A stretch of DNA of 64,000 nt, taken from contig JAEHGL010000001.1 in assembly GCA_019248485.1 (NCBI GenBank), forward strand, positions 11,446 to 75,445, written 5' to 3'. The notes under the pieces are model-generated. The model saw only the letters and a program-made list of their open reading frames with translations, was not told where the DNA came from and made no database searches. This DNA comes from Candidatus Komeilibacteria bacterium S5_K13 (lineage in GTDB: Bacteria; Patescibacteriota; Patescibacteriia; UBA1558; S5-K13). Shown one piece after another: positions 1,639 to 62,841 of the stretch (the stretch's first letter is position 1; each line of letters opens with the position of its first letter). The position numbers were made by a program, and so were the translations under genes.

Positions 1639-2652
1639 TTATCTTGTCGAAAGTATACTTCTCTTATATGAATCTAAATTTTCTAAAGCAATGCCAGTTC
1701 CCTTGGCAACACAAAGATATGGTTTGTCAGCTACATAACAAGGAACTCCCGTTGTTTGAGTGAATAATTTGTCTATATTTCTAAGCTGAGAAGTACCACC
1801 CGACAAAATCATACCCTTTTCCATGACGTCAGCGGACAATTCTGGTGGAGTATTATACAAAACTGATTTAATAGCTGAAATAATTCCATATAATTCGTTT
1901 TGAAGAGCTTCGGTAATATCATCTGAAGTAATCTTTAAAATTCTTGGAAGACCAGAAATAATATCACGCCCCTTTATTTCAGTGCTCATTTTATCTTTCT
2001 CATCCAAAAATAATGCAGAGCCTATTTTGATTTTTATTGTCTCAGAACTTGACTCACCTATTGCAAGACCATATTTTTTCTTAATATGTTCCATTATTGC
2101 AGCATCAAATCTTGTTCCACCGATCCTTACTGAATTACTTGTTACTATTCCGCCAAGAGAAATAACGGCTATTTCTGTTGTTCCTCCACCAAGCTCTACT
2201 ATCATGTGTCCTGAAGCAGATCCTATTGGAATTTCGGCTCCTATTGCAGCTGCAAGAGGTTGTTTGATGATATAAGCAGCTTTTGCACCTGAGGCAAGCG
2301 TAGCGCCAATAACAGCACGTCTCTCAGTGGATGTAATCCCAGCTGGAACCGAGATCATAACTTCTGGCCTAAACAATTTAACACCAGACAAGGCTTTATT
2401 TATAAAATATCTAAGCATACTTTCTGTAGTTCTATAGTCTGCTATAACACCATCTTTTAAAGGGCGGTGTGCAATAATAGAATCAGGAGTACGTCCAATC
2501 ATTTCCTTTGCTTCATTACCAACAGCAAGCACTTTTTTATCAATCAAAGAAATAGCAACAACCGAAGGCTCATTTATAATAATCCCTTTTTTTGGCACAT
2601 AAACAAGCGTTGTTGTTGTGCCCAAATCTATTCCTATTTTTTTTCTAAACAT
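1639..2652 (-). CDS. mreB: Rod shape-determining protein MreB (actin-like ATPase).
   Basis: N-terminal IGIDLGTTTTLVYV phosphate-1 motif, with DxGGGTT and actin-fold motifs along the length. Confidence 0.85.
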   Translation of the reverse strand: MFRKKIGIDLGTTTTLVYVPKKGIIINEPSVVAISLIDKKVLAVGNEAKEMIGRTPDSIIAHRPLKDGVIADYRTTESMLRYFINKALSGVKLFRPEVMISVPAGITSTERRAVIGATLASGAKAAYIIKQPLAAAIGAEIPIGSASGHMIVELGGGTTEIAVISLGGIVTSNSVRIGGTRFDAAIMEHIKKKYGLAIGESSSETIKIKIGSALFLDEKDKMSTEIKGRDIISGLPRILKITSDDITEALQNELYGIISAIKSVLYNTPPELSADVMEKGMILSGGTSQLRNIDKLFTQTTGVPCYVADKPYLCVAKGTGIALENLDSYKRSILSTR

Positions 2653-6475: not shown

Positions 6476-7534
6476 TTATTTTTTATAAGAATTTTCAAAT
6501 GTAGGGGGAAGTAATACTTCTTTCAAACTATCGAAGTCCTCCACTACTATTCCTACACCTCTTATAACCGTTGTAAGAGAGTCATCAGCTATAATAACTG
6601 GGATTTGAGTAGCTTCATATATCATTTTATCTAAACCCAAAATATTTGCACCTCCACCCGACAAAACCATTCCTCTTTGATATAAATCTGAAACAAGTTC
6701 TGGTGGTGTATTTTCAACCACATCTTTTATTGCGCTAATAATAATATCTATTGATTTTTTTATTGCCTCTCTTACTTCCTCGCTTTTTAAAACTATTTCT
6801 TTTGGAAGTCCTGTCAAAAGGTTCCTTCCTCTTATTTTCATTTTTTGCGTCTTACTTTCTATTTGAAGCACATTTGCTATTTTTATTTTTACATTTTCTG
6901 CAGTTTTTTCACCCAAGAAAAGATTATATTTTTCTCTAACATAATCAATAATATCATTGTCTAATTTTTCTCCTGCTATCTTAAGAGATTTAGAGGCAAC
7001 TATTCCTCCCAAAGAAATTACTGCTATTTCTGTTTTTCCACCACCAAGCTCTACTATCATATTTCCATTTGCTTCTTGAATTGGCAATCTCACTCCTATT
7101 GCAGAGGCCATTGGTTGTTCGATAAGATAAACCTCTTTTGCGCCAGCAGAAAGTGCAACATCTTCAACCGCTTTTCTTTCAACTTCTGTAATATCAAGTG
7201 GAACGCCTATTATAATCCTTGGACGAAAAAACATAGAAAAAGATTCTTTGTGAATCTTGTCTATAAAATATTTCATCATCTTCTCTGTAATTTCAAAATC
7301 TGATATAACCCCATGTCTTAGTGGTTTGATGGCTAAAATATGTGGCGGGGTTTTTCCAAGCATTCTCCTTGCATCATCTCCAACTGAAAGAATTTGATCT
7401 ATTCTTGTATTAATAGCAACAACAGATGGCTCATTTACTATGATACCTTTTCCACTAACATAAAAAAGCGTGTTTGAAGTTCCTAGGTCAACACCAATGT
7501 CTTTTGACATTTTTGTAAAAAAGTTCTTTAACAT
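6476..7534 (-). CDS. mreB: Second MreB/Mbl paralog.
   Basis: IGVDLGTSNTLFYV and actin-fold motifs. It is a paralog of the gene at 1639-2652. Confidence 0.85.
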   Translation of the reverse strand: MLKNFFTKMSKDIGVDLGTSNTLFYVSGKGIIVNEPSVVAINTRIDQILSVGDDARRMLGKTPPHILAIKPLRHGVISDFEITEKMMKYFIDKIHKESFSMFFRPRIIIGVPLDITEVERKAVEDVALSAGAKEVYLIEQPMASAIGVRLPIQEANGNMIVELGGGKTEIAVISLGGIVASKSLKIAGEKLDNDIIDYVREKYNLFLGEKTAENVKIKIANVLQIESKTQKMKIRGRNLLTGLPKEIVLKSEEVREAIKKSIDIIISAIKDVVENTPPELVSDLYQRGMVLSGGGANILGLDKMIYEATQIPVIIADDSLTTVIRGVGIVVEDFDSLKEVLLPPTFENSYKK

Positions 7535-7587: not shown

Positions 7588-7890
7588 TTATTTTGCAACA
7601 TGTTTTGATAAAAATGAAATTATCCTCTTTGCCTCGTCTTTTATCATTGCATCATCATATTCACCACTATGAGCAGTATGCCCCTTATAAGAGGCCTTTT
7701 TTTGATCAATGTGGATGCTAAATTCAATCACATTTTTATTATTTTTTATATAGAGATGCCATCTTGGATAAAACTCTCTAGAAATGCTTCTAATATAACT
7801 ATCTCCATATTTTGGGTGTAGTCTATATCCGCACTCTTGTAATATTGTATTCAAATTTTCATTAAAATTTGCTTTTATCTTAAAATCCAT
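7588..7890 (-). CDS. Hypothetical 100-aa protein.
   Basis: ORF only. No recognisable motif. Confidence 0.3.
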   Translation of the reverse strand: MDFKIKANFNENLNTILQECGYRLHPKYGDSYIRSISREFYPRWHLYIKNNKNVIEFSIHIDQKKASYKGHTAHSGEYDDAMIKDEAKRIISFLSKHVAK

Positions 7891-9039: not shown

Positions 9040-9125
9040 CCTCCTTCATTTGGACATTTCTCGCCTCGCTGAAGCTACCTGCCTCGACTTGTGTCTATGG
9101 CAAGGCGGGTGGCGAAGCGGGGAAA
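9040..9125 (+). repeat. GC-rich repeat element, copy 1 (~60-85 nt). Core sequence is ...TCGCCTCGCTGAAGCTACCTGCCTCGACTTGTGTCTATGGCAAGGCGGGTGGCGAAGCGGGG.
   Basis: The same sequence recurs at 38335-38415 and 61175-61292 in the same orientation. A diverged partial copy lies inside the CDS at 40003-40044. It is GC-rich in an AT-rich genome and contains internal inverted repeats. Confidence 0.8.
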
Positions 9126-11899: not shown

Positions 11900-13380
11900 C
11901 TGACATCACCTCAGAGGTGCATCACCTCAGAGGTGTTTAGCTGTGGATAACTACTATTGACAATAACTCTATGACATGCTATGTTACTTTATTGTACATT
12001 AACAATTCACTTCAAATTAACAGCAAGAAAAATGTAGAAGACTCTTTAAGAGGAGCTAATCTTTGGCGCCTTGAAAATAAACAAATTGCCATTTTAGCCA
12101 CTCTTCTACAGCTTTCTTGCTGTTAAAAAGGCTCCCTCTGTCAGAGATATTAGTTGACTAAGGAGCCATGATAAAGATGCCGCTTCCCTTAATTCTTTAT
12201 CCGAAATCAACAGAATTCAATTATTAAATAGGTGTTGATTGGTAGATAGAGGATGTTTCCCAACAATGGAGGTAACATGAGTATTCGGGGACAGCCCTAG
12301 ATTCCAAAATAAAAACAATCCCCCGAGACTTGGGGGAAATTCCGAATAGAAAAATTTTTTTGACAAAAGACATCCCTTGCTCCATTCTCCCCTAAAAGCA
12401 CATTACTACACATTAGAGGGATTTTACGGAAGCATGGGTAATATCTTTTGTCACCCGTCTTGTGGTCTTCGCGTCTGTTCAATGCTCTCGAGTTTTTAGC
12501 AAAGATCATTAGACACCCCTGGTGCCCCCATACGCACAGTAAGCGCACTCCCAACAATTGTTGGGAGTGAAAAAAGCGCTACGATATGTGCTGCTGGTTC
12601 TTTGAACCTGCCCTATAGCACTCAGAAATAGCGATGGGGGCTCACCAGAAAAACACCAAAGGCAACCTAGCAATTTTCCGGCTAATCCATGGTAACTCCG
12701 TTTTTTTTAGCGGTAATATCCATAGACAAAACCGGCCTAGGATGCCCGAGTGTGCGGACCAAAAGACTGTTAAGGGTTTACCTAAGGGCGCCCTTTCGCA
12801 CCTAGCTTGGTGCGAGCACAGTTTTGGCCACACGCGGCGACCCATGTCCCTGGCGCCTTCGCTCAATTGCTCATCGGGCTAAAACCTCCGATAAGAGCTA
12901 GAGAATCGTATTGCGAAGGCGCCTAATTCAATCAGTTCACATTGGTCCTTTATTGGATCAAACGGACCAAGGCCTAAAAAGCCCCGGCCTGTGCCAGCAG
13001 AAAGCTGACCAAGGCTCTCAAGTCCGAACCCAATGTGAACTCAAACCCCATTCTCTTTGGGGCTTGAATCGATAAGCGTAAAACAAATTACGCAAGTTGT
13101 TTACAAGCCCCCTTGAGATTTCAAGAAACAACCCCCGCAGTCTAATTGACTAGAGGGGTTAATGAAAGAAACATAAGTTTCTGAGAACCTCACGCCGAGG
13201 AATAATGCCTCTAGATAGAGTGTTCTCAGGGAAGACCGTCCAGAAGTCCTTCTGGACTCTAAACGACAACAAGCTTGACTGTAACCGAAAGGTACAGCCC
13301 GCCACGTCGTTAGACTCCTTAGGACTTCTGGAAAATTTTAACTAAGACCCGTAATACACTGTGGTCTTTTTTATTTGTCA
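11900..13380. ncRNA. Large GC-rich (~50% GC), hairpin-dense noncoding locus. Candidate structured RNA(s) of unknown family; strand unresolved.
   Basis: No credible ORF (the three track ORFs overlap each other on both strands). There are many perfect hairpins, for example CACTCCCAACAATTGTTGGGAGTG, GGCGCCTTCGC...GCGAAGGCGCC, and a long-range pair GTTCACATTGG/CCAATGTGAAC. A + strand promoter-like site sits at about 11957-11985 and a terminator at 13345-13377. Confidence 0.4.
13345..13377 (+). terminator. Hairpin AGACC-N13-GGTCT followed by a T-run.
   Basis: Stem-loop plus TTTTTTATTT at the 3' edge of the GC-rich locus. Confidence 0.45.
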
Positions 13381-13424
13381 GAAACCGACCCTGAGGGTCG
13401 ACCTAAAAATCTGCTCTTGACGAT

Positions 13425-13455
13425 TATATTTATATGTGATAAAATGCTACATTAA
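13425..13455 (+). promoter_or_regulatory. Sigma70-like promoter (TTGACG -17- TAAAAT) upstream of the beta-barrel gene.
   Basis: TTGACGATTATATTTATATGTGATAAAATG, followed by a strong SD AGGGAGG 6 nt before the ATG at 13481. Confidence 0.5.
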
Positions 13456-13480
13456 ATAAAATCAATAAAGGGAGGATATC

Positions 13481-14452
13481 ATGAAAAAAATGATATTTAT
13501 CATCATGTCAGTCTGCCTATTCGCAGGTTTAGTGGCACAAACAACACCCACCACCTCACCCACATTTTATGGGAAACTAATGATGGGAACATGGTACAAT
13601 ACTGGAAATAGTACTTTTTCTGAGCAGATGTATTCCAACTCTCGTCTTGGTATCAGATGGAATAATGGACATTCTTATGACTTCATAGGGGAGATGGGAA
13701 TGAGTCCCAACGGTATTGTGTTAAGAAAACTGACATGCGTCATGAATATCTGGAATGGTTGCGATCTCAAAATTGGGAATGATTGGTTTAGTGGACTTGA
13801 TCAATGCACTAATGGAGCAACTGGCCCCACTTATACATCTGATAGCCCTACAGAATCTGGTCCTGCAGTAATTGCCAGAACACCACAGATAACATTGATA
13901 CACAATGATTTGTATCTTAGTTTTCTACCGGGTATAACGGTTAATCCAACCGGAACAGAGACAACAAAAAGCATTCCCAGACTGGCTGTCTCAAAAAAGG
14001 TTAAAATCTTAGACGTAAATTTTACTCCTGCATTATCCTATGGACATTACTGGGATAAACAAAATTCTTATAATGCCTGGGTGGTCTGTATCACAGCTAA
14101 AAGTAAAATTTTTGATTACGACATTACTACACAAGGATTTATAGCCAATAATTTTGGCGATTTGGGTGGATTAAGTATTGCTCAATCTAACGCAACTGCT
14201 ATTAATCAAAATATTCAATCAGGTGGTGCTTTTGCACAAATTAGATATCAAAACTTTTATGTAGGTGCTGGATATACCAAAAATAAAACAATGGAAACAG
14301 ACGCCGGTACCACGTTTTTCCAATATAACAAAACCATGTGGAAAAATGGAAACATTACATTAACACTAACTCCTGAAATGGGATTGTTCTTTGGAGATAA
14401 TGTCTCCAAAAACACTTTATATTTCGGAAGTAAGTGGACAGCCCAATTCTAA
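13481..14452 (+). CDS. Secreted protein resembling an outer-membrane beta-barrel/porin (C-terminal Phe, alternating hydrophobic strands). GC content is higher than its neighbours.
   Basis: Signal peptide MKKMIFIIMSVCLFAGLVAQ. C-terminus ...YFGSKWTAQF. Strong SD. ~40% GC. Confidence 0.5.
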   Translation: MKKMIFIIMSVCLFAGLVAQTTPTTSPTFYGKLMMGTWYNTGNSTFSEQMYSNSRLGIRWNNGHSYDFIGEMGMSPNGIVLRKLTCVMNIWNGCDLKIGNDWFSGLDQCTNGATGPTYTSDSPTESGPAVIARTPQITLIHNDLYLSFLPGITVNPTGTETTKSIPRLAVSKKVKILDVNFTPALSYGHYWDKQNSYNAWVVCITAKSKIFDYDITTQGFIANNFGDLGGLSIAQSNATAINQNIQSGGAFAQIRYQNFYVGAGYTKNKTMETDAGTTFFQYNKTMWKNGNITLTLTPEMGLFFGDNVSKNTLYFGSKWTAQF

Positions 14453-38334: not shown

Positions 38335-38415
38335 CCGGTTGCTCGCCTCGCTATCGCTACCTGCCTCGACTTGCGTCTATGGCAAGGCGGGTGGCGAAGC
38401 GGGACTAACCGGATA
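38335..38415 (+). repeat. GC-rich repeat element, copy 2.
   Basis: CCGGTTGCTCGCCTCGCTATCGCTACCTGCCTCGACTTGCGTCTATGGCAAGGCGGGTGGCGAAGCGGG. Confidence 0.8.
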
Positions 38416-56253: not shown

Positions 56254-56466
56254 AAATATTATTCTCTAAAAATAAAAATTATACATTTATTTTCGCATAA
56301 TTTATACAAAAAGACAATAATAAAAAACATTACTCCTTCGGCAATGTTCTTTGGTAGTTCCATATAGTTCGGGACGTTAGAACTATTATCCAACAACAAA
56401 ATGAATATATTCATATTCCTAGTTTAAAATATAGCTGATTTATAACTTATCCTACTACCCTACTCA

Positions 56467-58508: not shown

Positions 58509-58937
58509 ATGAAAAAAGGAATCATTGTACATACCATCGTTTTTAATTCAAATAAAGAAATCTTATTAATAAAAAGATCTAGTGCCGAAACTACTTTACC
58601 TGGATACTGGGATATTCCTGGCGGGACACTTGAAGACGGCGAAGATCCAACAAATGGTGCAATTAGAGAAACACTGGAAGAAACTGGCATAAAAATAGAT
58701 AGGCCGAGTTTGTTTTTCTATACATCAAATATAGATACTCAAAAAAATAAACAATTTATTCTTATGATATTTATAACCCAAACCTTTAACTCACAAGTTA
58801 TATTAAACAAAGATGATCATGAAGATTATAAATGGATAGATATAAATGATCCACTTCAACTTAGTGTAGTTTTCTATATTAAAGATTGTTTTAAACTATT
58901 GAGGTCTAAAAAACATAAGTTATTAAAATTTATATAA
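58509..58937 (+). CDS. NUDIX hydrolase.
   Basis: Nudix box GGTLEDGEDPTNGAIRETLEETGI. Confidence 0.75.
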   Translation: MKKGIIVHTIVFNSNKEILLIKRSSAETTLPGYWDIPGGTLEDGEDPTNGAIRETLEETGIKIDRPSLFFYTSNIDTQKNKQFILMIFITQTFNSQVILNKDDHEDYKWIDINDPLQLSVVFYIKDCFKLLRSKKHKLLKFI

Positions 58938-58946
58938 TCGCTTAAA

Positions 58947-58995
58947 CGTTTTTTAAAACAAAAAGACGTCTTGATATAAAACGTCTCTTATGCTC
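58947..58995. repeat. 49-bp direct repeat A (Bro-N gene 3' end plus terminator hairpin AGACGT...ACGTCT). Its mate lies at 61120-61168, with one mismatch.
   Basis: AAAACAAAAAGACGTCTTGATATAAAACGTCTCTTATGCTCTAATATGT. Confidence 0.8.
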
Positions 58996-59866
58996 TAATA
59001 TGTGATTCATTACTATTTTGAAAAACCTTTTTTAACTTTTTTTGCTTTGATAATCTTTTAAAATTGTTTTTACTCACTATCGGCTTACCAGTTTTTTGTT
59101 CCAATTCTAAACGAGCATTTTTCGCAACATGTCCACCTTTTTTTGCGGGAATTTTATTATCTTCTACTCCTTTTGTTTCCATTGTTTCTGCAATTTGGCG
59201 TGTAGAAAGTTCTGCTAAAGCTGTAAAAACTAGCTCGGCATCTGTCATGTGATCTCGTAAATTTTCTTGACGCAAATCTTTTAAGCTCTTGTGTTCTTTT
59301 ATTGTAAGATCACTCCATTCTTTATGAATAATATTTGTCAAAATAGCATACTCCTCTTTTTTTCTTACTTCATTATCCTTCCAATAATCAGTCAATTTAT
59401 TGCGAATTTCTTGTCCCATCATTCTCTGTTGTATCCATTTTTTATCTCGTCCCATTTTCTGCCAATATTCACAACTTCTATCTAAAGCTCTTTCTGGATC
59501 ATTCATTTCTTGCACTCTTTCATAACCAACTTTTGCTAACCATAATTTAATAGGTTCAGCCTTTTTGCTTGGAATAGATTGAATAAGGCGCAAAATTGTT
59601 TCTACGTCAGCAACATCTGTTTTATAAAATTTACCATCTGCGGACAAAAGTTTCAGTTTGTCACATTTTGTGACAGACTCATTTCCCTCTCTTTTTAAAC
59701 GATTTTTAAGAGTTGCCCAATAACTTTGTGCTTTTTTGAAATCTATTTGCTCAATTAAAATAGCAACGATATCAATTACTGAAAAATACCATGTCTCAGT
59801 CTTTTCATCATAATATCGACGAATTTTGTGAGTTTTAAAAATAGCAATGTTTTTATTTTTTTTCAT
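58988..59866 (-). CDS. Bro-N domain protein with a DinD-like (DNA-damage-inducible protein D) C-terminal region.
   Basis: The N-terminal IAIFKTHKIRRYYDEKTETWYFSVIDIVAIL resembles Bro-N. The C-terminal FTALAELSTRQIAE...KKGGHVAKNARLELEQKTGKPIVS is DinD-like. Confidence 0.55.
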   Translation of the reverse strand: MKKNKNIAIFKTHKIRRYYDEKTETWYFSVIDIVAILIEQIDFKKAQSYWATLKNRLKREGNESVTKCDKLKLLSADGKFYKTDVADVETILRLIQSIPSKKAEPIKLWLAKVGYERVQEMNDPERALDRSCEYWQKMGRDKKWIQQRMMGQEIRNKLTDYWKDNEVRKKEEYAILTNIIHKEWSDLTIKEHKSLKDLRQENLRDHMTDAELVFTALAELSTRQIAETMETKGVEDNKIPAKKGGHVAKNARLELEQKTGKPIVSKNNFKRLSKQKKLKKVFQNSNESHIRA

Positions 59867-59949
59867 ATATTCTCTGTCCCTTTGAATAACCGGACAGTAA
59901 TTATATTATAACTTAATCTTGCCATAATTCATTCTAGAAATCAATTGAA

Positions 59950-60537
59950 TTAATTTTCATTCTCTTTGCTCCAAAAATCTACGTCTTCCCCATCTTCATG
60001 AATACTATCAAAAAAATCTGCTGGCATGTCTTTATATTTACTCTTTAAAATTATTGCCTCAGCCTCGCTTATCCATAATTTCTCATATTCAACCTTACCC
60101 TCTAATCGCTCTAATCTATTTTTAACTAAAACATAATAATCTTCACTAAAATTATATTTCCATTCTTCTAATTTCTTTGGATCTTTTATATTATTCATAA
60201 TTCTATTATGTAATTCTCTATCTAAATCTAATTCTTCCAACGCTGTTGCTGCAGCATTAATCTTGATCATTTTTTGATATAATTGATCTTCTCTTATTCT
60301 AAACATTTTAGCCAAACGAAAATCTTTTTCTTCATTTTCACTATCAGCAGAATAATAAAAAAATTCTGCTTCTTCAAGTGCTAGTTTAGCAAAATCTTGT
60401 AATTCTTTATCTTTGCTAGTTTTAATAAAGTTTTTTATTTGTTGAATAGATTGCTTCGTCCCCTCATGAGCCCAACCAATAAGTTAAGCCTTATCATCTG
60501 ATTCTCCCATGTTTTTTAAAAATTGTTTTTTTGTCAT
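59950..60537 (-). pseudogene. Hypothetical gene with an in-frame TAA (at 60484-60486) separating a 17-codon N-terminal piece from a 179-codon continuation. Probable nonsense-disrupted gene.
   Basis: Minus frame reads MTKKQFLKNMGESDDKA-stop-LIGWAHEGTKQSIQQIKNFIKTSKDKELQDFAKLALEEAEFFYYSADSENEEKDFRLAKMFRIRED... The track ORF starts at a TTG at 60315. Confidence 0.4.
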
Positions 60538-60584
60538 ATTATTTTTTAATAATTAAATTACACCATTTAAAAATATCGTTATTT

Positions 60585-60914
60585 TTAATTATCAAAAATA
60601 GCAACATCTCCCTTATCATATTCTCCGATTTCAAAACCATCATATTTAAAATTATCTCCGTTTTGATAAAAAAATAAGGATACTTGTTGATTAAGCACCA
60701 AAATAAAACCTCGCTCATTGATACTAGTAGAAAAAATATCAATTTTCTCAGATGTAGAAAAAATTTTATGTAATTTATGAAAATCTATACTTGTCTTTGT
60801 TTCTTTTGTCGTAAACTTAAATATAGATTGTGGCCAAAGTTTAAACAATACTTTTTGCCATAAAGATAATTTCAAAGCTTCTAGACCATTTTCTTTTAAA
60901 AATTCTTTGTTCAT
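60585..60914 (-). CDS. Hypothetical protein (109 aa).
   Basis: ORF only. Confidence 0.3.
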   Translation of the reverse strand: MNKEFLKENGLEALKLSLWQKVLFKLWPQSIFKFTTKETKTSIDFHKLHKIFSTSEKIDIFSTSINERGFILVLNQQVSLFFYQNGDNFKYDGFEIGEYDKGDVAIFDN

Positions 60915-61119
60915 AAAATTTCAATATATTTATTAAATAAAAAACGCTCCATAAATTCGCTTTTTCTAAATTGTGACCCAATTAATACCTAAGTCTTAAC
61001 AAAACATTATAATAAGGTATAAAAATATTCAATAATGATATGCACCTATATTAAGCCGTCTAATTTATTAGAAATACATACTAAAAATTACTCTGCAATT
61101 AAATTATCTTATTACAATC

Positions 61120-61168
61120 AAAACAAAAAGACGTCTTGAAATAAAACGTCTCTTATGCTCTAATATGT
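61120..61168. repeat. 49-bp direct repeat B (orphan copy of the Bro-N gene end and terminator).
   Basis: AAAACAAAAAGACGTCTTGAAATAAAACGTCTCTTATGCTCTAATATGT. Confidence 0.8.
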
Positions 61169-61174
61169 TATTTT

Positions 61175-61292
61175 CGACGCAACCCCGTCTTCGCTCGCCT
61201 CGCATTCGCTACCTGCCTCGACTTGTGTCTATGGCAAGGCGGGTGGCGAAGCGGGCCTACGGCTACGCCGAGGCAGGTCGGTTGCTCGAAAC
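61175..61292 (+). repeat. GC-rich repeat element, copy 3 (the longest). It has an additional right arm containing CGAGGCAGGT, which is complementary to ACCTGCCTCG.
   Basis: ...CGCCTCGCATTCGCTACCTGCCTCGACTTGTGTCTATGGCAAGGCGGGTGGCGAAGCGGGCCTACGGCTACGCCGAGGCAGGTCGGTTGCTCG. Confidence 0.8.
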
Positions 61293-61638
61293 ATGTACTA
61301 AGTTGGCTCCCTAAATCGGACCCTAATCTGTTAAGTACCAAACCATAAACATTGATTATTTTATAAATAGTGTTATTATATTTATATATTCTAAAAATAT
61401 GATTTCAAACAGATTTCAAACAACGAACAAGTCTTGGTGGACTACCCATAATATTGGGTAGACGCTCTTTTGTTTAAAATATTTTCATAAAACTACTCAA
61501 TATTATTCCAAAGTATTGGGTAGTTTTTTATTTACAAAAAAATAAGTTTATGCACTATTATTTTCATAACAAATCAACAGAGCCTTGGCGATGCAATAAT
61601 TACGTATCTTATTTTATTAATATTTAAAATTAAATTAT

Positions 61639-62841
61639 ATGAAAAATTCATTAAAACAATCCCCTAATCAATTTGGTTATTTCGGTAAATATGGTGGACA
61701 AATTATTCCACCAACATTAATACCAATATTCGATGATATAGCTAAGGCATACAAAATTGCTCAAGCTGATCCTGATTTCCAAACAGAATATCAAAATCTA
61801 TTAAAAAATTATGTTGGTAGACCATCACCGTTATATTACGCCAAAAACTTATCAGAGAAATTAGGTGAAGCAAAAATATATTTAAAACGTGAAGATTTAA
61901 ATCACACCGGCGCACATAAGATAAATCATACTCTTGGTGAAGCATTACTTGCTAAGAGAATGGGCAAGACTAAACTACTAGCAGAAACTGGTGCAGGACA
62001 ACATGGCGTAGCACTAGCTACAGCAACTGCACTTGTAGGAATAGAATGTGAAATTCACATGGGTGAAATTGATGTCTTAAAACAACATCCAAATGTTATT
62101 CGCATGCAACTACTGGGTGCAAAAGTTGTAACTGTAAAATCGGGCGGACGCTCACTAAAAGATGCTGTCGATAGCGCCTTTGATGCTTTTGTAAAAGATC
62201 CAAAAAATATATTCTTTGGTATTGGCTCAATAGTTGGGCCACATCCATTTCCTATGATGGTTAGAGATTTTCAATCTATTATTGGCAAAGAAGCGAAAGT
62301 TCAAATTTTAGAACAAGAAGGCAGATTACCGGATTATTTAATTGCCTGTGTTGGTGGTGGTTCAAATGCGATTGGCTTATTCCATGAATTCTTAGATGAT
62401 GAGAGCGTAAAAATGATAGGAGTTGAACCCAGTGGAAGAAGTTTCAATCATGGAGACAATGCAGCGACTCTAACACTAGGTAAACCTGGAAATATTCATG
62501 GAATGTTTACTTATTTACTACAAGATGATAACGGAGAACCGTTACCAGTTCACTCTATTGCTTCAGGATTAGATTATCCAGGAGTTGGACCAATTCATTC
62601 TGATTTAAAAGATTCAGGAAGAGTAACATATGAATCAATAAATGATGTAGAAGCGCTAGATGCTTTCCAAACTCTAACTAAATTAGAAGGTATTATTCCC
62701 GCACTAGAAAGTTCGCACGCATTAGCACATGCATTTAAAATTGCACCTAGTATGAGTTCTGACAAAATCATTATTATTAACTTATCTGGTAGAGGTGATA
62801 AAGACATTGATTATGTTGCAGAAAAGTTAGGTTATAAGTAA
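61639..62841 (+). CDS. trpB: Tryptophan synthase beta chain (standalone; no trpA in the window).
   Basis: [35 protein letters not shown] (PLP Lys), GAGQHGVA and GGGSNAIG motifs. Confidence 0.9.

What the first reader, a model, noticed from the sequence alone, without database searches (positions are those of the whole stretch)
58947..61168. 2.2-kb segment bounded by 49-bp direct repeats, carrying a Bro-N/DinD-like gene, a stop-interrupted gene and a small ORF
The sequences at 58947-58995 and 61120-61168 are identical apart from 1 nt. Each comprises the last codons of the Bro-N gene (..HIRA-stop) plus its terminator hairpin (AGACGT/ACGTCT followed by a T-run). The second copy is an orphan with no gene attached. 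The enclosed genes are phage-flavoured: the Bro-N domain and the DinD-like C-terminus. The segment is immediately followed by GC-repeat copy 3. This looks like a small integrated or decaying mobile element (phage or satellite remnant) with att-like direct repeats.
Basis: partly seen in the sequence, partly recalled or inferred. Interest (0 to 1): 0.6.

Follow-up and report, generated by a model that had tools for sequence, protein, structure and literature searches.

The report
Three-gene islet between duplicated terminators
A small three-gene accessory operon sits just downstream of a decayed tRNA-Asn gene in a candidate-phyla-radiation (CPR) bacterium and is bracketed by two copies of a 53-base transcription terminator; it looks like an old, fixed gene insertion, not a phage remnant, and is fairly ordinary.

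Summary
The repeat is real. The copies lie at 58955-59007 and 61120-61172: 53 nt with 2 mismatches, or 49 nt with 1.

The repeat is not native Bro-N sequence. Each copy is a strong intrinsic terminator on the minus strand. In relatives the Bro-N/DinD-like gene stops 11 or more codons earlier, so here it reads through a 19-nt spacer into DR1. DR2, the "orphan", is the copy in native context. In two relatives the same 53-mer joins the same palindrome, which in L094 leads to a tRNA gene. The window keeps only that tRNA's last 7 nt, at 61304-61310.

The whole architecture (tRNA, palindrome, DR2, ORF3, X, BroN, DR1, NUDIX) is conserved in a second species (L094, genes about 77-87% nt identical). 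The two repeats co-vary within each genome. The three-gene module also occurs without these repeats at an unrelated locus in a third genome, L007.

There is no integrase. The phage signal is almost nil. No empty site was found.

Best reading: an old insertion into a tRNA-Asn trailer that duplicated the terminator, now fixed and decaying. X carries a CAA-to-TAA nonsense mutation.

Side lead: Bro-N/DinD (PDC-S13) genes are flanked by locus-specific direct repeats more often than their neighbours (9/68 against 5/263).

The parts
58955..59007 (-). DR1: distal copy of the 53-nt repeat. It acts as the terminator of the module and supplies the last 6 codons and the stop of the Bro-N ORF.
   Evidence: Terminator-like site at 58989-58961. 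RNA fold -18.2 kcal/mol, z -6.2.
61120..61172 (-). DR2: proximal copy. It is contiguous with the palindrome and the tRNA-Asn trailer, which is its native context.
   Evidence: Terminator-like site at 61154-61126. RNA fold -19.1 kcal/mol, z -5.5. The same junction with the palindrome is seen in L089 and L094.
58988..59866 (-). Bro-N / DinD-like gene, 292 aa, a PADLOC PDC-S13 candidate defence protein. The last 13 codons (58988-59026) are read-through beyond the point where homology with L007 ends.
59008..59026 (-). 19-nt spacer between the end of module homology and DR1. It is conserved in L094 (16 of 19) and absent from L007.
59950..60537 (-). Gene X, a pseudogene or truncated gene. It has an in-frame TAA at 60484-60486, where L094 has CAA and L007 has CGG. 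X is intact (198-201 aa) in L007, L094 and L095. It is a lineage-restricted orphan.
60585..60914 (-). ORF3, 109 aa. It is found only with X in four genomes or samples, and no family matches it.
60915..61100 (-). Conserved upstream region of the module, probably its promoter. It is shared with L007, L094 and L095.
   Evidence: 85% identity to L094. The promoter assignment is inferred.
61101..61119 (-). Spacer between the module and DR2. It matches L094 at 19 of 19 positions and is not shared with L007.
61173..61291 (.). Palindromic trailer hairpin (arms 61173-61184 and 61280-61291), expanded by nested GC-rich insertions. The outer layers are 61185-61193 and 61256-61279. The 67-nt GC-repeat core is at 61193-61259.
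61304..61310 (-). TGGCTCC, the 3'-terminal GGAGCCA of tRNA-Asn. It is all that is clearly left of the tRNA here, and homology with L094 ends at this point.

Best explanation
On the minus strand, in reading order, the locus runs:
1. a remnant of tRNA-Asn (its 3' end only);
2. a palindromic trailer hairpin, swollen by GC-rich insertions;
3. intrinsic terminator DR2;
4. a promoter region, ORF3, X and the Bro-N/DinD-like gene;
5. intrinsic terminator DR1, which meets the convergent NUDIX gene.

The three-gene operon is an accessory islet. It was inserted into the terminator region of a tRNA-Asn trailer in an ancestor of this species and of the L094 organism. The insertion left one copy of the 53-bp terminator on each side. 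The likely routes are a Campbell-type or site-specific crossover within that sequence, or repair of a staggered break around it.

Both copies now work as terminators. DR2 insulates the operon from upstream transcription. DR1 ends the operon. The two copies have been kept alike by gene conversion or recombination between them.

The islet is now fixed and decaying. X has a nonsense mutation, the Bro-N gene has lost its own stop and runs into DR1, and the tRNA is gone.

Shown: the anatomy, its conservation, the terminator predictions, the co-variation of the repeats, and the second location of the module. Inferred: the insertion mechanism, terminator function in vivo, and the defence role of the Bro-N/DinD protein.
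For: - The repeat is real and far beyond chance.
- Both copies are predicted minus-strand terminators: 5 terminator-like sites in the region against 0.9 expected, and z -6.2 and -5.5.
- Homology of the module with L007 runs only from about 59027 to about 61100. L007 has no flanking repeat, and its Bro-N ends earlier.
- L094 is collinear from the tRNA 3' end to NUDIX, with both repeats at the same boundaries.
- L089 has a solo copy of the 53-mer (94% identical) fused to the same palindrome.
- The NUDIX 3' flank of L088-L090 matches the window up to AAAACAAAA and then diverges.
- At positions 23 and 33, both window copies share a state not seen in the other three sequences. At position 50, both L094 copies do. 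Distance within a genome is 2, and between genomes 3-6.
- X has a CAA-to-TAA change that is also present in a second sample.
- No recombinase domains occur nearby.
Against: - No empty site (NUDIX, single repeat, palindrome, tRNA) was found, so insertion is inferred and not observed.
- Synteny around NUDIX is poor in this clade.
- 53 bp is far longer than known transposon target duplications, and no enzyme that could make the insertion is identified.
- The co-variation rests on only 3-4 sites.
- The L007 copy shows that the module can exist without the repeats. The repeats may therefore belong to the tRNA-linked site, not to the module.
Confidence: 0.5

Rival explanations
1. The segment is a still-mobilisable element without its own integrase, like a cis-mobilisable element (CIME). 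The two repeats would act as attL and attR for a recombinase encoded elsewhere. Alternatively they serve as substrates for RecA-dependent loop-out, so the module is gained and lost in the population.
For: - The repeats are kept nearly identical within each of two diverged genomes.
- They share a 28-nt perfectly identical stretch.
- In a second sample of the same organism (SRR30464888), the assembly breaks exactly at the inner edge of DR1. L002 ends at 59007, and L006 starts 30 nt earlier.
- In that sample the sequence right of 61131, inside DR2, is different.
- The tRNA-Asn 3' heptamer TGGCTCC is a recurrent rearrangement breakpoint in this clade.
Against: - No recombinase was found, and no circular or deletion junction was seen.
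- The alternative junction in L006 is not the one expected from DR1 x DR2 recombination. It looks more like a repeated element inserted in DR2.
- The architecture has been stable since the split from L094.
- X is already a pseudogene in both samples.
Confidence: 0.15
2. Two tRNA-Asn-targeting segments accreted in tandem, each ending in the same right end (53-mer, palindrome, GGAGCCA core). The NUDIX-bearing segment and the module-bearing segment integrated one after the other at the tRNA 3' end. A later deletion removed the palindrome and core behind DR1.
For: - L089 shows such an array: 53-mer, palindrome, TGGCTCC plus arm motif, a 397-aa gene, TGGCTCC plus arm motif, NUDIX to QueC, TGGCTCC/tRNA-Asn.
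- The arm motif also occurs in the window at 56362-56383, about 4.9 kb left of the core at 61304.
- In L007 the module starts 12 nt after a GGGAGCCA, and a second copy lies about 110 nt upstream.
Against: - It needs an extra deletion that ends exactly at the repeat edge.
- The core is only 7 nt.
- No integrase has been seen.
- The genes on the supposed NUDIX segment (YibE/F-like protein, DUF134, NUDIX) look like ordinary chromosomal genes.
Confidence: 0.15
3. The repeat has nothing to do with insertion. A useful terminator was copied locally, by gene conversion or small duplication, to the end of an old resident operon.
For: - Both copies are strong terminators in functional positions.
- The structure is conserved in L094.
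- Gene conversion between the copies is evident.
Against: - The copied block includes 18 nt upstream of the hairpin that has no terminator role.
- The module is demonstrably movable (L007).
- Bro-N/DinD genes in other phyla are flanked by locus-specific repeats more often than their neighbours: 9/68 against 5/263, p 3e-4. That argues for an insertion-linked process.
Confidence: 0.12
4. It is a prophage or phage-satellite remnant with att repeats.
For: Direct repeats are present. A Bro-N domain is present. The Bro-N protein matches phrog_15286 over its full length.
Against: - Almost no phage records carry the gene.
- X and ORF3 have no phage relatives.
- There are no integrase, capsid, replication or packaging genes.
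- An identical family member sits in one fixed chromosomal context beside tsaE in ten assemblies.
Confidence: 0.04

Closest known systems
tRNA-linked genomic islets and cis-mobilisable elements (CIMEs): islands that keep attL and attR but have lost integration and transfer genes (definition in PMC6323972)
   Same: A small accessory gene block next to a tRNA gene, flanked by direct repeats, with no recombinase of its own. It is found at different loci in different genomes.
   Different: The repeat is not the tRNA 3' end. It is the intrinsic terminator 68 nt (L094) to 131 nt (window) further downstream. No cognate integrative element or integrase is known. The structure appears fixed over a species-level divergence. 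Excision was not observed.
PADLOC PDC-S13, a single-gene 'phage defence candidate' predicted by guilt-by-embedding and untested (bioRxiv 10.1101/2024.01.29.577857). Some JGI annotations name family members as E. coli DinD.
   Same: The 292-aa protein matches the PDC-S13 profile over its full length (E 1.4e-116). It has an N-terminal Bro-N fold (pLDDT 77-90 in the model).
   Different: Here it is the last gene of a three-gene operon with two orphan genes. Those two genes accompany it in none of 80 other loci. A defence function has not been shown for any member. Homology to E. coli DinD itself was not tested here.
Duplicated Rho-independent terminators or REP-like intergenic repeats
   Same: A hairpin plus U-run, located at gene ends. 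Both copies are predicted to terminate transcription.
   Different: There are only two copies in 64 kb, not a dispersed family. The repeat includes non-hairpin sequence. The copies bracket one movable module.

Membership tests
Site-specific integrative element (prophage, satellite or genomic island) | Flanking direct repeats (attL and attR) | tested here: met
   53-nt repeats at 58955-59007 and 61120-61172.
Site-specific integrative element (prophage, satellite or genomic island) | Integrase or excisionase inside or next to the element | tested here: not met
   Pfam, NCBIfam, PHROGs and PADLOC give no recombinase match for the three genes. No recombinase Pfam domain is present on any called gene, from about 10 kb left of NUDIX to the contig end.
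Site-specific integrative element (prophage, satellite or genomic island) | Repeat overlaps the 3' end of the target tRNA gene | tested here: not met
   The tRNA is intact only in L094. The window has only TGGCTCC at 61304-61310. DR2 ends 131 nt from it (68 nt in L094) and shares nothing with the tRNA.
Site-specific integrative element (prophage, satellite or genomic island) | Empty-site allele or circular form in relatives or the population | tested here: inconclusive
   Relatives of NUDIX show other downstream genes but no clean empty site. The repeat pattern is absent from IMG/VR and JGI metagenomes. Logan contig ends coincide with the repeat edges but do not show the expected junctions.
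Site-specific integrative element (prophage, satellite or genomic island) | The same element at different loci in different genomes | tested here: met
   The module in L007 has unrelated flanks. In L094 it is at the same locus as in the window.
Phage or satellite remnant | Phage hallmark genes, or relatives mainly in phage genomes | tested here: not met
Tandem duplication | The repeats are the edges of a longer duplicated block | tested here: not met
   Similarity ends at 53 nt on both sides, and the flanks are unrelated.
Rho-independent terminator | GC-containing hairpin followed by a U-run on the transcribed strand, at a gene end | tested here: met
   A 12-pair stem, a 5-nt loop and a T-run for both copies. 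z-scores -6.2 and -5.5. In vivo function was not tested.
Bro-N / PDC-S13 protein family | Bro-N domain (PF02498) above Pfam threshold | tested here: inconclusive
   Window protein 24.0 bits against a cut-off of 25.6. The L007 orthologue scores 27.8 bits. Many close homologues carry PF02498.
Bro-N / PDC-S13 protein family | Full-length match to the PDC-S13 profile | tested here: met
   E 1.4e-116, residues 1-281 on profile positions 1-278 of 286.
Bro-N / PDC-S13 protein family | Anti-phage activity | not testable with these tools
   PDC systems are untested predictions.
Cis-mobilisable element (CIME) | att sites matching those of a cognate ICE or IME that can act on them | not tested
   No cognate element or integrase was identified in the DNA available.

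The most novel reading that the evidence does not exclude
Bro-N/DinD-like (PDC-S13) genes would be self-contained insertion cassettes. They would land just 3' of host genes, including tRNAs, by an integrase-independent mechanism that duplicates 25-135 nt of the target. The window's 53-nt repeat would be one instance, here with two passenger genes.

Evidence not excluding this:
- Tight, locus-specific flanking repeats occur at 9 of 68 family loci across several phyla, against 5 of 263 neighbouring ORFs.
- The repeats often consist of the 3' end or trailer of the upstream gene, or of a tRNA trailer.
- Nucleotide homology between loci is confined to the ORF.

Evidence against:
- The element has no conserved ends.
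- The AlphaFold model shows no recognisable catalytic domain (the C-terminal half is only moderately confident), and no known enzyme fold matches it.
- An identical protein sits in one fixed context in 10 assemblies.
- Two of the repeat cases (L029, L085) look like dispersed intergenic repeats.
Probability: 0.1. Interest if true: 0.8.

Novelty: new member of a known kind. Interest (0 to 1): 0.35.

Why it matters
Mobile DNA and integration hot spots are poorly charted in CPR/Patescibacteria (the phylum of the closest named relatives). This locus gives a concrete example: an accessory, candidate-defence operon parked in a tRNA-Asn trailer. The tRNA's 3'-terminal heptamer recurs as a rearrangement breakpoint in related genomes.

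The practical lesson is about annotation. The "gene end plus orphan copy" picture was inverted. The gene borrowed its stop codon from a duplicated terminator.

The family-wide excess of flanking repeats around PDC-S13 genes would matter most if it holds up, because it would point to an uncharacterised way of inserting single genes.

Tried and rejected
**RNA families.** Rfam found nothing for the repeat, the palindrome or the GC element. This held at gathering thresholds on the window and four loci, and in E-value mode on 58900-61660 and L089 5950-6450. An early idea that DR2 ends a novel small RNA was replaced once L094 showed a tRNA there.

**Integron cassette or attC reading.** I rejected this by inspection of the repeat sequence. 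It has no R''/R' (RYYYAAC / GTTRRRY) pairing. The repeats around other family members are not palindromic.

**Empty-site search.** NUDIX orthologues at 67-80% identity were looked up. Their downstream genes differ in every lineage, so no clean empty allele exists in the data.

**Pattern scans for the 53-mer.** It is absent from IMG/VR and JGI metagenomes.

**The 29-nt alternative junction in Logan contig L006.** It occurs nowhere else in the window or in the loci fetched up to that point.

**Gene X.** It has only 5 relatives among 5.8 billion proteins and no family hits. ORF3 has no family hits either.

**PDB sequence search of the Bro-N protein.** Nothing was found.

**Fold search.** Only a weak DdrC resemblance turned up (E 2.5e-3, TM 0.30-0.37), from a model with mean pLDDT 67. 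I do not build on it.

**Literature.** Searches for PDC-S13 and for DinD with Bro-N returned nothing specific.

**Recent mobility test.** One identical family protein (P0104) was checked in ten assemblies. It was in the same context every time.
Full report
**Observation**

The window holds two copies of a 53-nt sequence, at 58955-59007 and 61120-61172, spaced 2165 nt apart. They differ at two positions: 58975 T against 61140 A, and 59004 G against 61169 T.
- A 43-nt core pattern matches exactly twice in 64 kb. None of 100 dinucleotide-preserving shuffles gave any match.
The first is shifted by 8 nt.
- With that correction, "49 bp, one mismatch" holds.

Three minus-strand ORFs lie between the copies.
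- A 292-aa Bro-N-type protein at 58988-59866.
- A gene interrupted by an in-frame TAA at 60484-60486, spanning 59950-60537. I call it X.
- A 109-aa ORF at 60585-60914, here ORF3.

NUDIX lies to the left and converges on the module. To the right are a GC-rich repeat copy and then trpB. The source contig is JAEHHI010000005.1 of GCA_019248045.1. It is AT-rich (about 31% GC), and the closest named relatives of its proteins are Patescibacteria/CPR MAGs.

**What the repeat is**

Both copies are predicted Rho-independent terminators on the minus strand.
- Each has a 12-pair stem, a 5-nt loop and a T-run. The region has 5 terminator-like sites, against 0.9 expected.
- Fold energies are -18.2 and -19.1 kcal/mol, with z-scores of -6.2 and -5.5.

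The repeat is not native Bro-N coding sequence.
- A sister MAG (L007, GCA_019248035.1) carries the same three genes at 77-89% aa identity.
- Nucleotide homology between it and the window runs only from about 59027 to about 61100. L007's Bro-N ends KKFKKR* at the point where homology stops.
- Most of the family is about 280 aa long.
- In the window the ORF has lost that stop. It reads through a 19-nt spacer into DR1, which supplies ESHIRA*.
- "Last codons of the gene" is therefore literally true but secondary.

**DR2 is the copy in native context**

L094 is a Logan contig from ERR14064755. Its NUDIX is 75% identical at protein level to the window's. L094 is collinear with the window over the whole structure:
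1. a tRNA (Rfam 38 bits for model positions 20-71, cut by the contig end);
2. TGGCTCC;
3. the palindrome;
4. DR2;
5. a 19-nt spacer (19 of 19 identical);
6. ORF3;
7. X (intact);
8. Bro-N (271 aa);
9. a spacer;
10. DR1;
11. NUDIX.

Its anticodon arm carries GTT, and it aligns with the tRNA-Asn of L089.

A third relative adds to this. L089 (GCA_964386425.1, NUDIX 77%) has a solo 53-mer, 94% identical, fused to the same palindrome (TTTTCGACGCAAACC|GGTTGCTCGAAAA). It lies at an unrelated locus.

In the window, ARAGORN and Rfam find no tRNA here.
- Only TGGCTCC (61304-61310) and some residual similarity remain. TGGCTCC is the reverse complement of the tRNA's 3'-terminal GGAGCCA.
- It is the sole TGGCTCC on the plus strand in 64 kb.
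- Homology with L094 stops exactly there.

On the other side, the NUDIX 3' flank of L088-L090 matches the window as far as ...TTTTTTAAAACAAAA, which covers the first 9 nt of DR1, and then diverges.

So the outer flank of each repeat copy is found joined to other partners in relatives. That is what a duplication created by insertion predicts.

**Age and dynamics**

The architecture predates the split of the window organism and the L094 organism.
- Genes are 77-87% nt identical. The repeats are 91-93% identical.

Within each genome the two copies differ at only 2 positions, against 3-6 between genomes.
- At positions 23 and 33 (an indel), both window copies share a state not seen in the other three sequences.
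- At position 50, both L094 copies do.
- That is concerted evolution, by gene conversion or recombination between copies 2.1 kb apart. The site count is small.

X carries a single CAA-to-TAA change relative to L094. The same stop is present in an independent sample of the same organism (SRR30464888, L006). This points to decay.

In that sample the contigs break at the inner edge of DR1. L002 ends at 59007, and L006 starts 30 nt earlier.
- Right of 61131, inside DR2, L006 carries 29 nt of unrelated sequence and then stops.
- This is a structural polymorphism at the repeats, but not the junction expected from DR1 x DR2 recombination.
- A repeated element inserted in DR2 is the simplest guess. 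I could not resolve it.

**Is it a mobile element?**

For:
- The module occurs at a different locus in L007, with no shared flanks.
- In L007 it begins 12 nt after a GGGAGCCA, again a tRNA 3'-end-like core.
- The same heptamer marks both breakpoints between two 99.7%-identical strains, L088 and L089. One breakpoint is at the 3' end of L089's tRNA-Asn. The other carries a second copy followed by a conserved arm motif.
- That arm motif also occurs in the window at 56362-56383.
- The tRNA-Asn 3' end therefore looks like a recombination hot spot in this clade.

Against:
- No recombinase domain appears in the module or on any called gene, from about 10 kb left of NUDIX to the contig end.
- No empty site, circle or deletion junction was found.
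- The structure is stably inherited.

**Is it phage-derived?**

The Bro-N protein matches PADLOC PDC-S13 over its full length (E 1.4e-116) and phrog_15286. PDC systems are untested candidates from guilt-by-embedding.
- The family is overwhelmingly chromosomal. It has more than 8000 homologues at 73-89% identity across CPR lineages.
- At least 365 genome stretches spanning many phyla encode a relative.
- Only 4 of 50,697 phage records and 2 IMG/VR contigs carry one.
- An identical member sits beside tsaE in the same context in ten assemblies.

X has five relatives among 5.8 billion proteins. X and ORF3 have no phage hits. Neither accompanies Bro-N in any of 80 other loci.

The AlphaFold model has mean pLDDT 67, with a confident Bro-N domain. 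It gives only a weak resemblance to the DNA-damage-response protein DdrC.

**Conclusion**

The best-supported reading is an old accessory islet inserted into the terminator of a tRNA-Asn trailer.
- The terminator is duplicated on both sides.
- Both copies now serve as terminators and are homogenised by conversion.
- The islet is fixed and partly decayed.

I put this at about 0.5. The rivals are:
- a still-mobilisable CIME-like element, 0.15;
- tandem accretion of two tRNA-Asn-targeting segments, 0.15;
- a duplication unrelated to insertion, 0.12;
- a phage remnant, 0.04.

**Side observation worth a follow-up**

Among the family loci fetched, 68 could be tested. At 9 of them the Bro-N/DinD gene is tightly bracketed by locus-specific direct repeats of 25 nt or more. 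The figure for neighbouring ORFs of 200 aa or more is 5 of 263 (odds ratio 7.9, Fisher p 3.4e-4).
- Several repeats are the 3' end or trailer of the adjacent gene. Examples are a histidine kinase 3' end in L068, a tRNA-Arg trailer in L070, and the end of the upstream gene in L025.
- Homology between loci is confined to the ORF.
- Two cases (L029, L085) look like dispersed intergenic repeats.

The window's repeat may be one instance of a family-wide tendency whose mechanism is unknown.

Noticed in passing
window 9059-9125, 38341-38407, 61193-61259: The 67-nt GC-rich repeat is a nested insertion at copy 3. L089 has the bare palindrome TTTTCGACGCAAACC|GGTTGCTCGAAAA. L094 has an extra GC-rich layer of about 33 nt at its centre. 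The window has that layer plus the 67-nt core. The Logan strain (L005) has a further 18-nt hairpin (CCGCCAGAGGCGGACAGG) in the right arm. For copies 1 and 2 the plus strand folds better than the minus strand (-34.4 against -28.4 and -44.9 against -38.3 kcal/mol), because of G-U pairs. No Rfam family matches.
   Followed up: partly
window 61304-61310; L088 and L089 about 7781-7790 and 12728-12736; L007 8688-8696 and 8800-8807: TGGCTCC, the 3'-terminal GGAGCCA of tRNA-Asn, sits exactly at homology breakpoints. This holds for window against L094 and for both ends of a 4.9-kb NUDIX-to-QueC segment that has different neighbours in two 99.7%-identical strains. It also precedes the module in L007. 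This suggests a site-specific recombination core in this clade.
   Followed up: partly
window 56362-56383 (region 56350-56466, between the ArsP_2-family exporter and YibE/F-like genes); L089 6152 and 7801; L088 7801: A conserved arm of about 55 nt (ATAGT..GGGACGTTAGAAC...) lies next to the heptamer or a degenerate copy of it. It overlaps a small minus-strand ORF (56259-56414, 51 aa) whose N-terminus (NIF..LL...SNVP.Y.E) is conserved in L089. Whether it is an att arm, a decayed tRNA half or a small gene is open.
   Followed up: partly
L008-L087 (Bro-N/DinD family loci): Tight locus-specific direct repeats of 25-135 nt flank the family gene at 9 of 68 loci, against 5 of 263 neighbouring ORFs (p 3.4e-4). 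Examples are L061 (97 nt), L068 (87 nt, a histidine kinase 3' end), L070 (68 nt, a tRNA-Arg trailer), L025 (47 nt) and L065 (44 nt).
   Followed up: partly
L006 (Logan SRR30464888), equivalent to window 61131/61132: The same organism in another sample has unrelated sequence (TGCTTTAGGCATATACATTTGTCGGTTTC) from 12 nt into DR2. The contig stops 29 nt later. This is probably a repeated element or a rearrangement in DR2. The sequence is absent from the window and from the loci fetched up to that point.
   Followed up: partly
L094 1431-2246, compared with window 58988-59866: The Bro-N gene is mosaic. By eye, residues about 35-95 (the core of the Bro-N domain) are replaced by a divergent version in L094, while the C-terminal two-thirds stays very similar. 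Overall identity is 72% aa, against 89% between the window and L007.
   Followed up: no
window 61442-61461 and 61489-61527 (plus strand, upstream of trpB at 61639): Two terminator-like hairpins with T-runs lie in the trpB leader. They share the sequence CTACCCA/TGGGTAG. This may be an attenuator or a leader switch. No Rfam hit was found in E-value mode.
   Followed up: no
window 12001-14000: GC content rises to 0.41-0.45, against about 0.31 for the rest of the window. I did not examine this region.
   Followed up: no
window 2022-2644 and 6877-7505: There are diverged direct repeats (190 nt and 94 nt, about 70% identical) spaced about 4.86 kb apart. They are probably paralogous genes.
   Followed up: no
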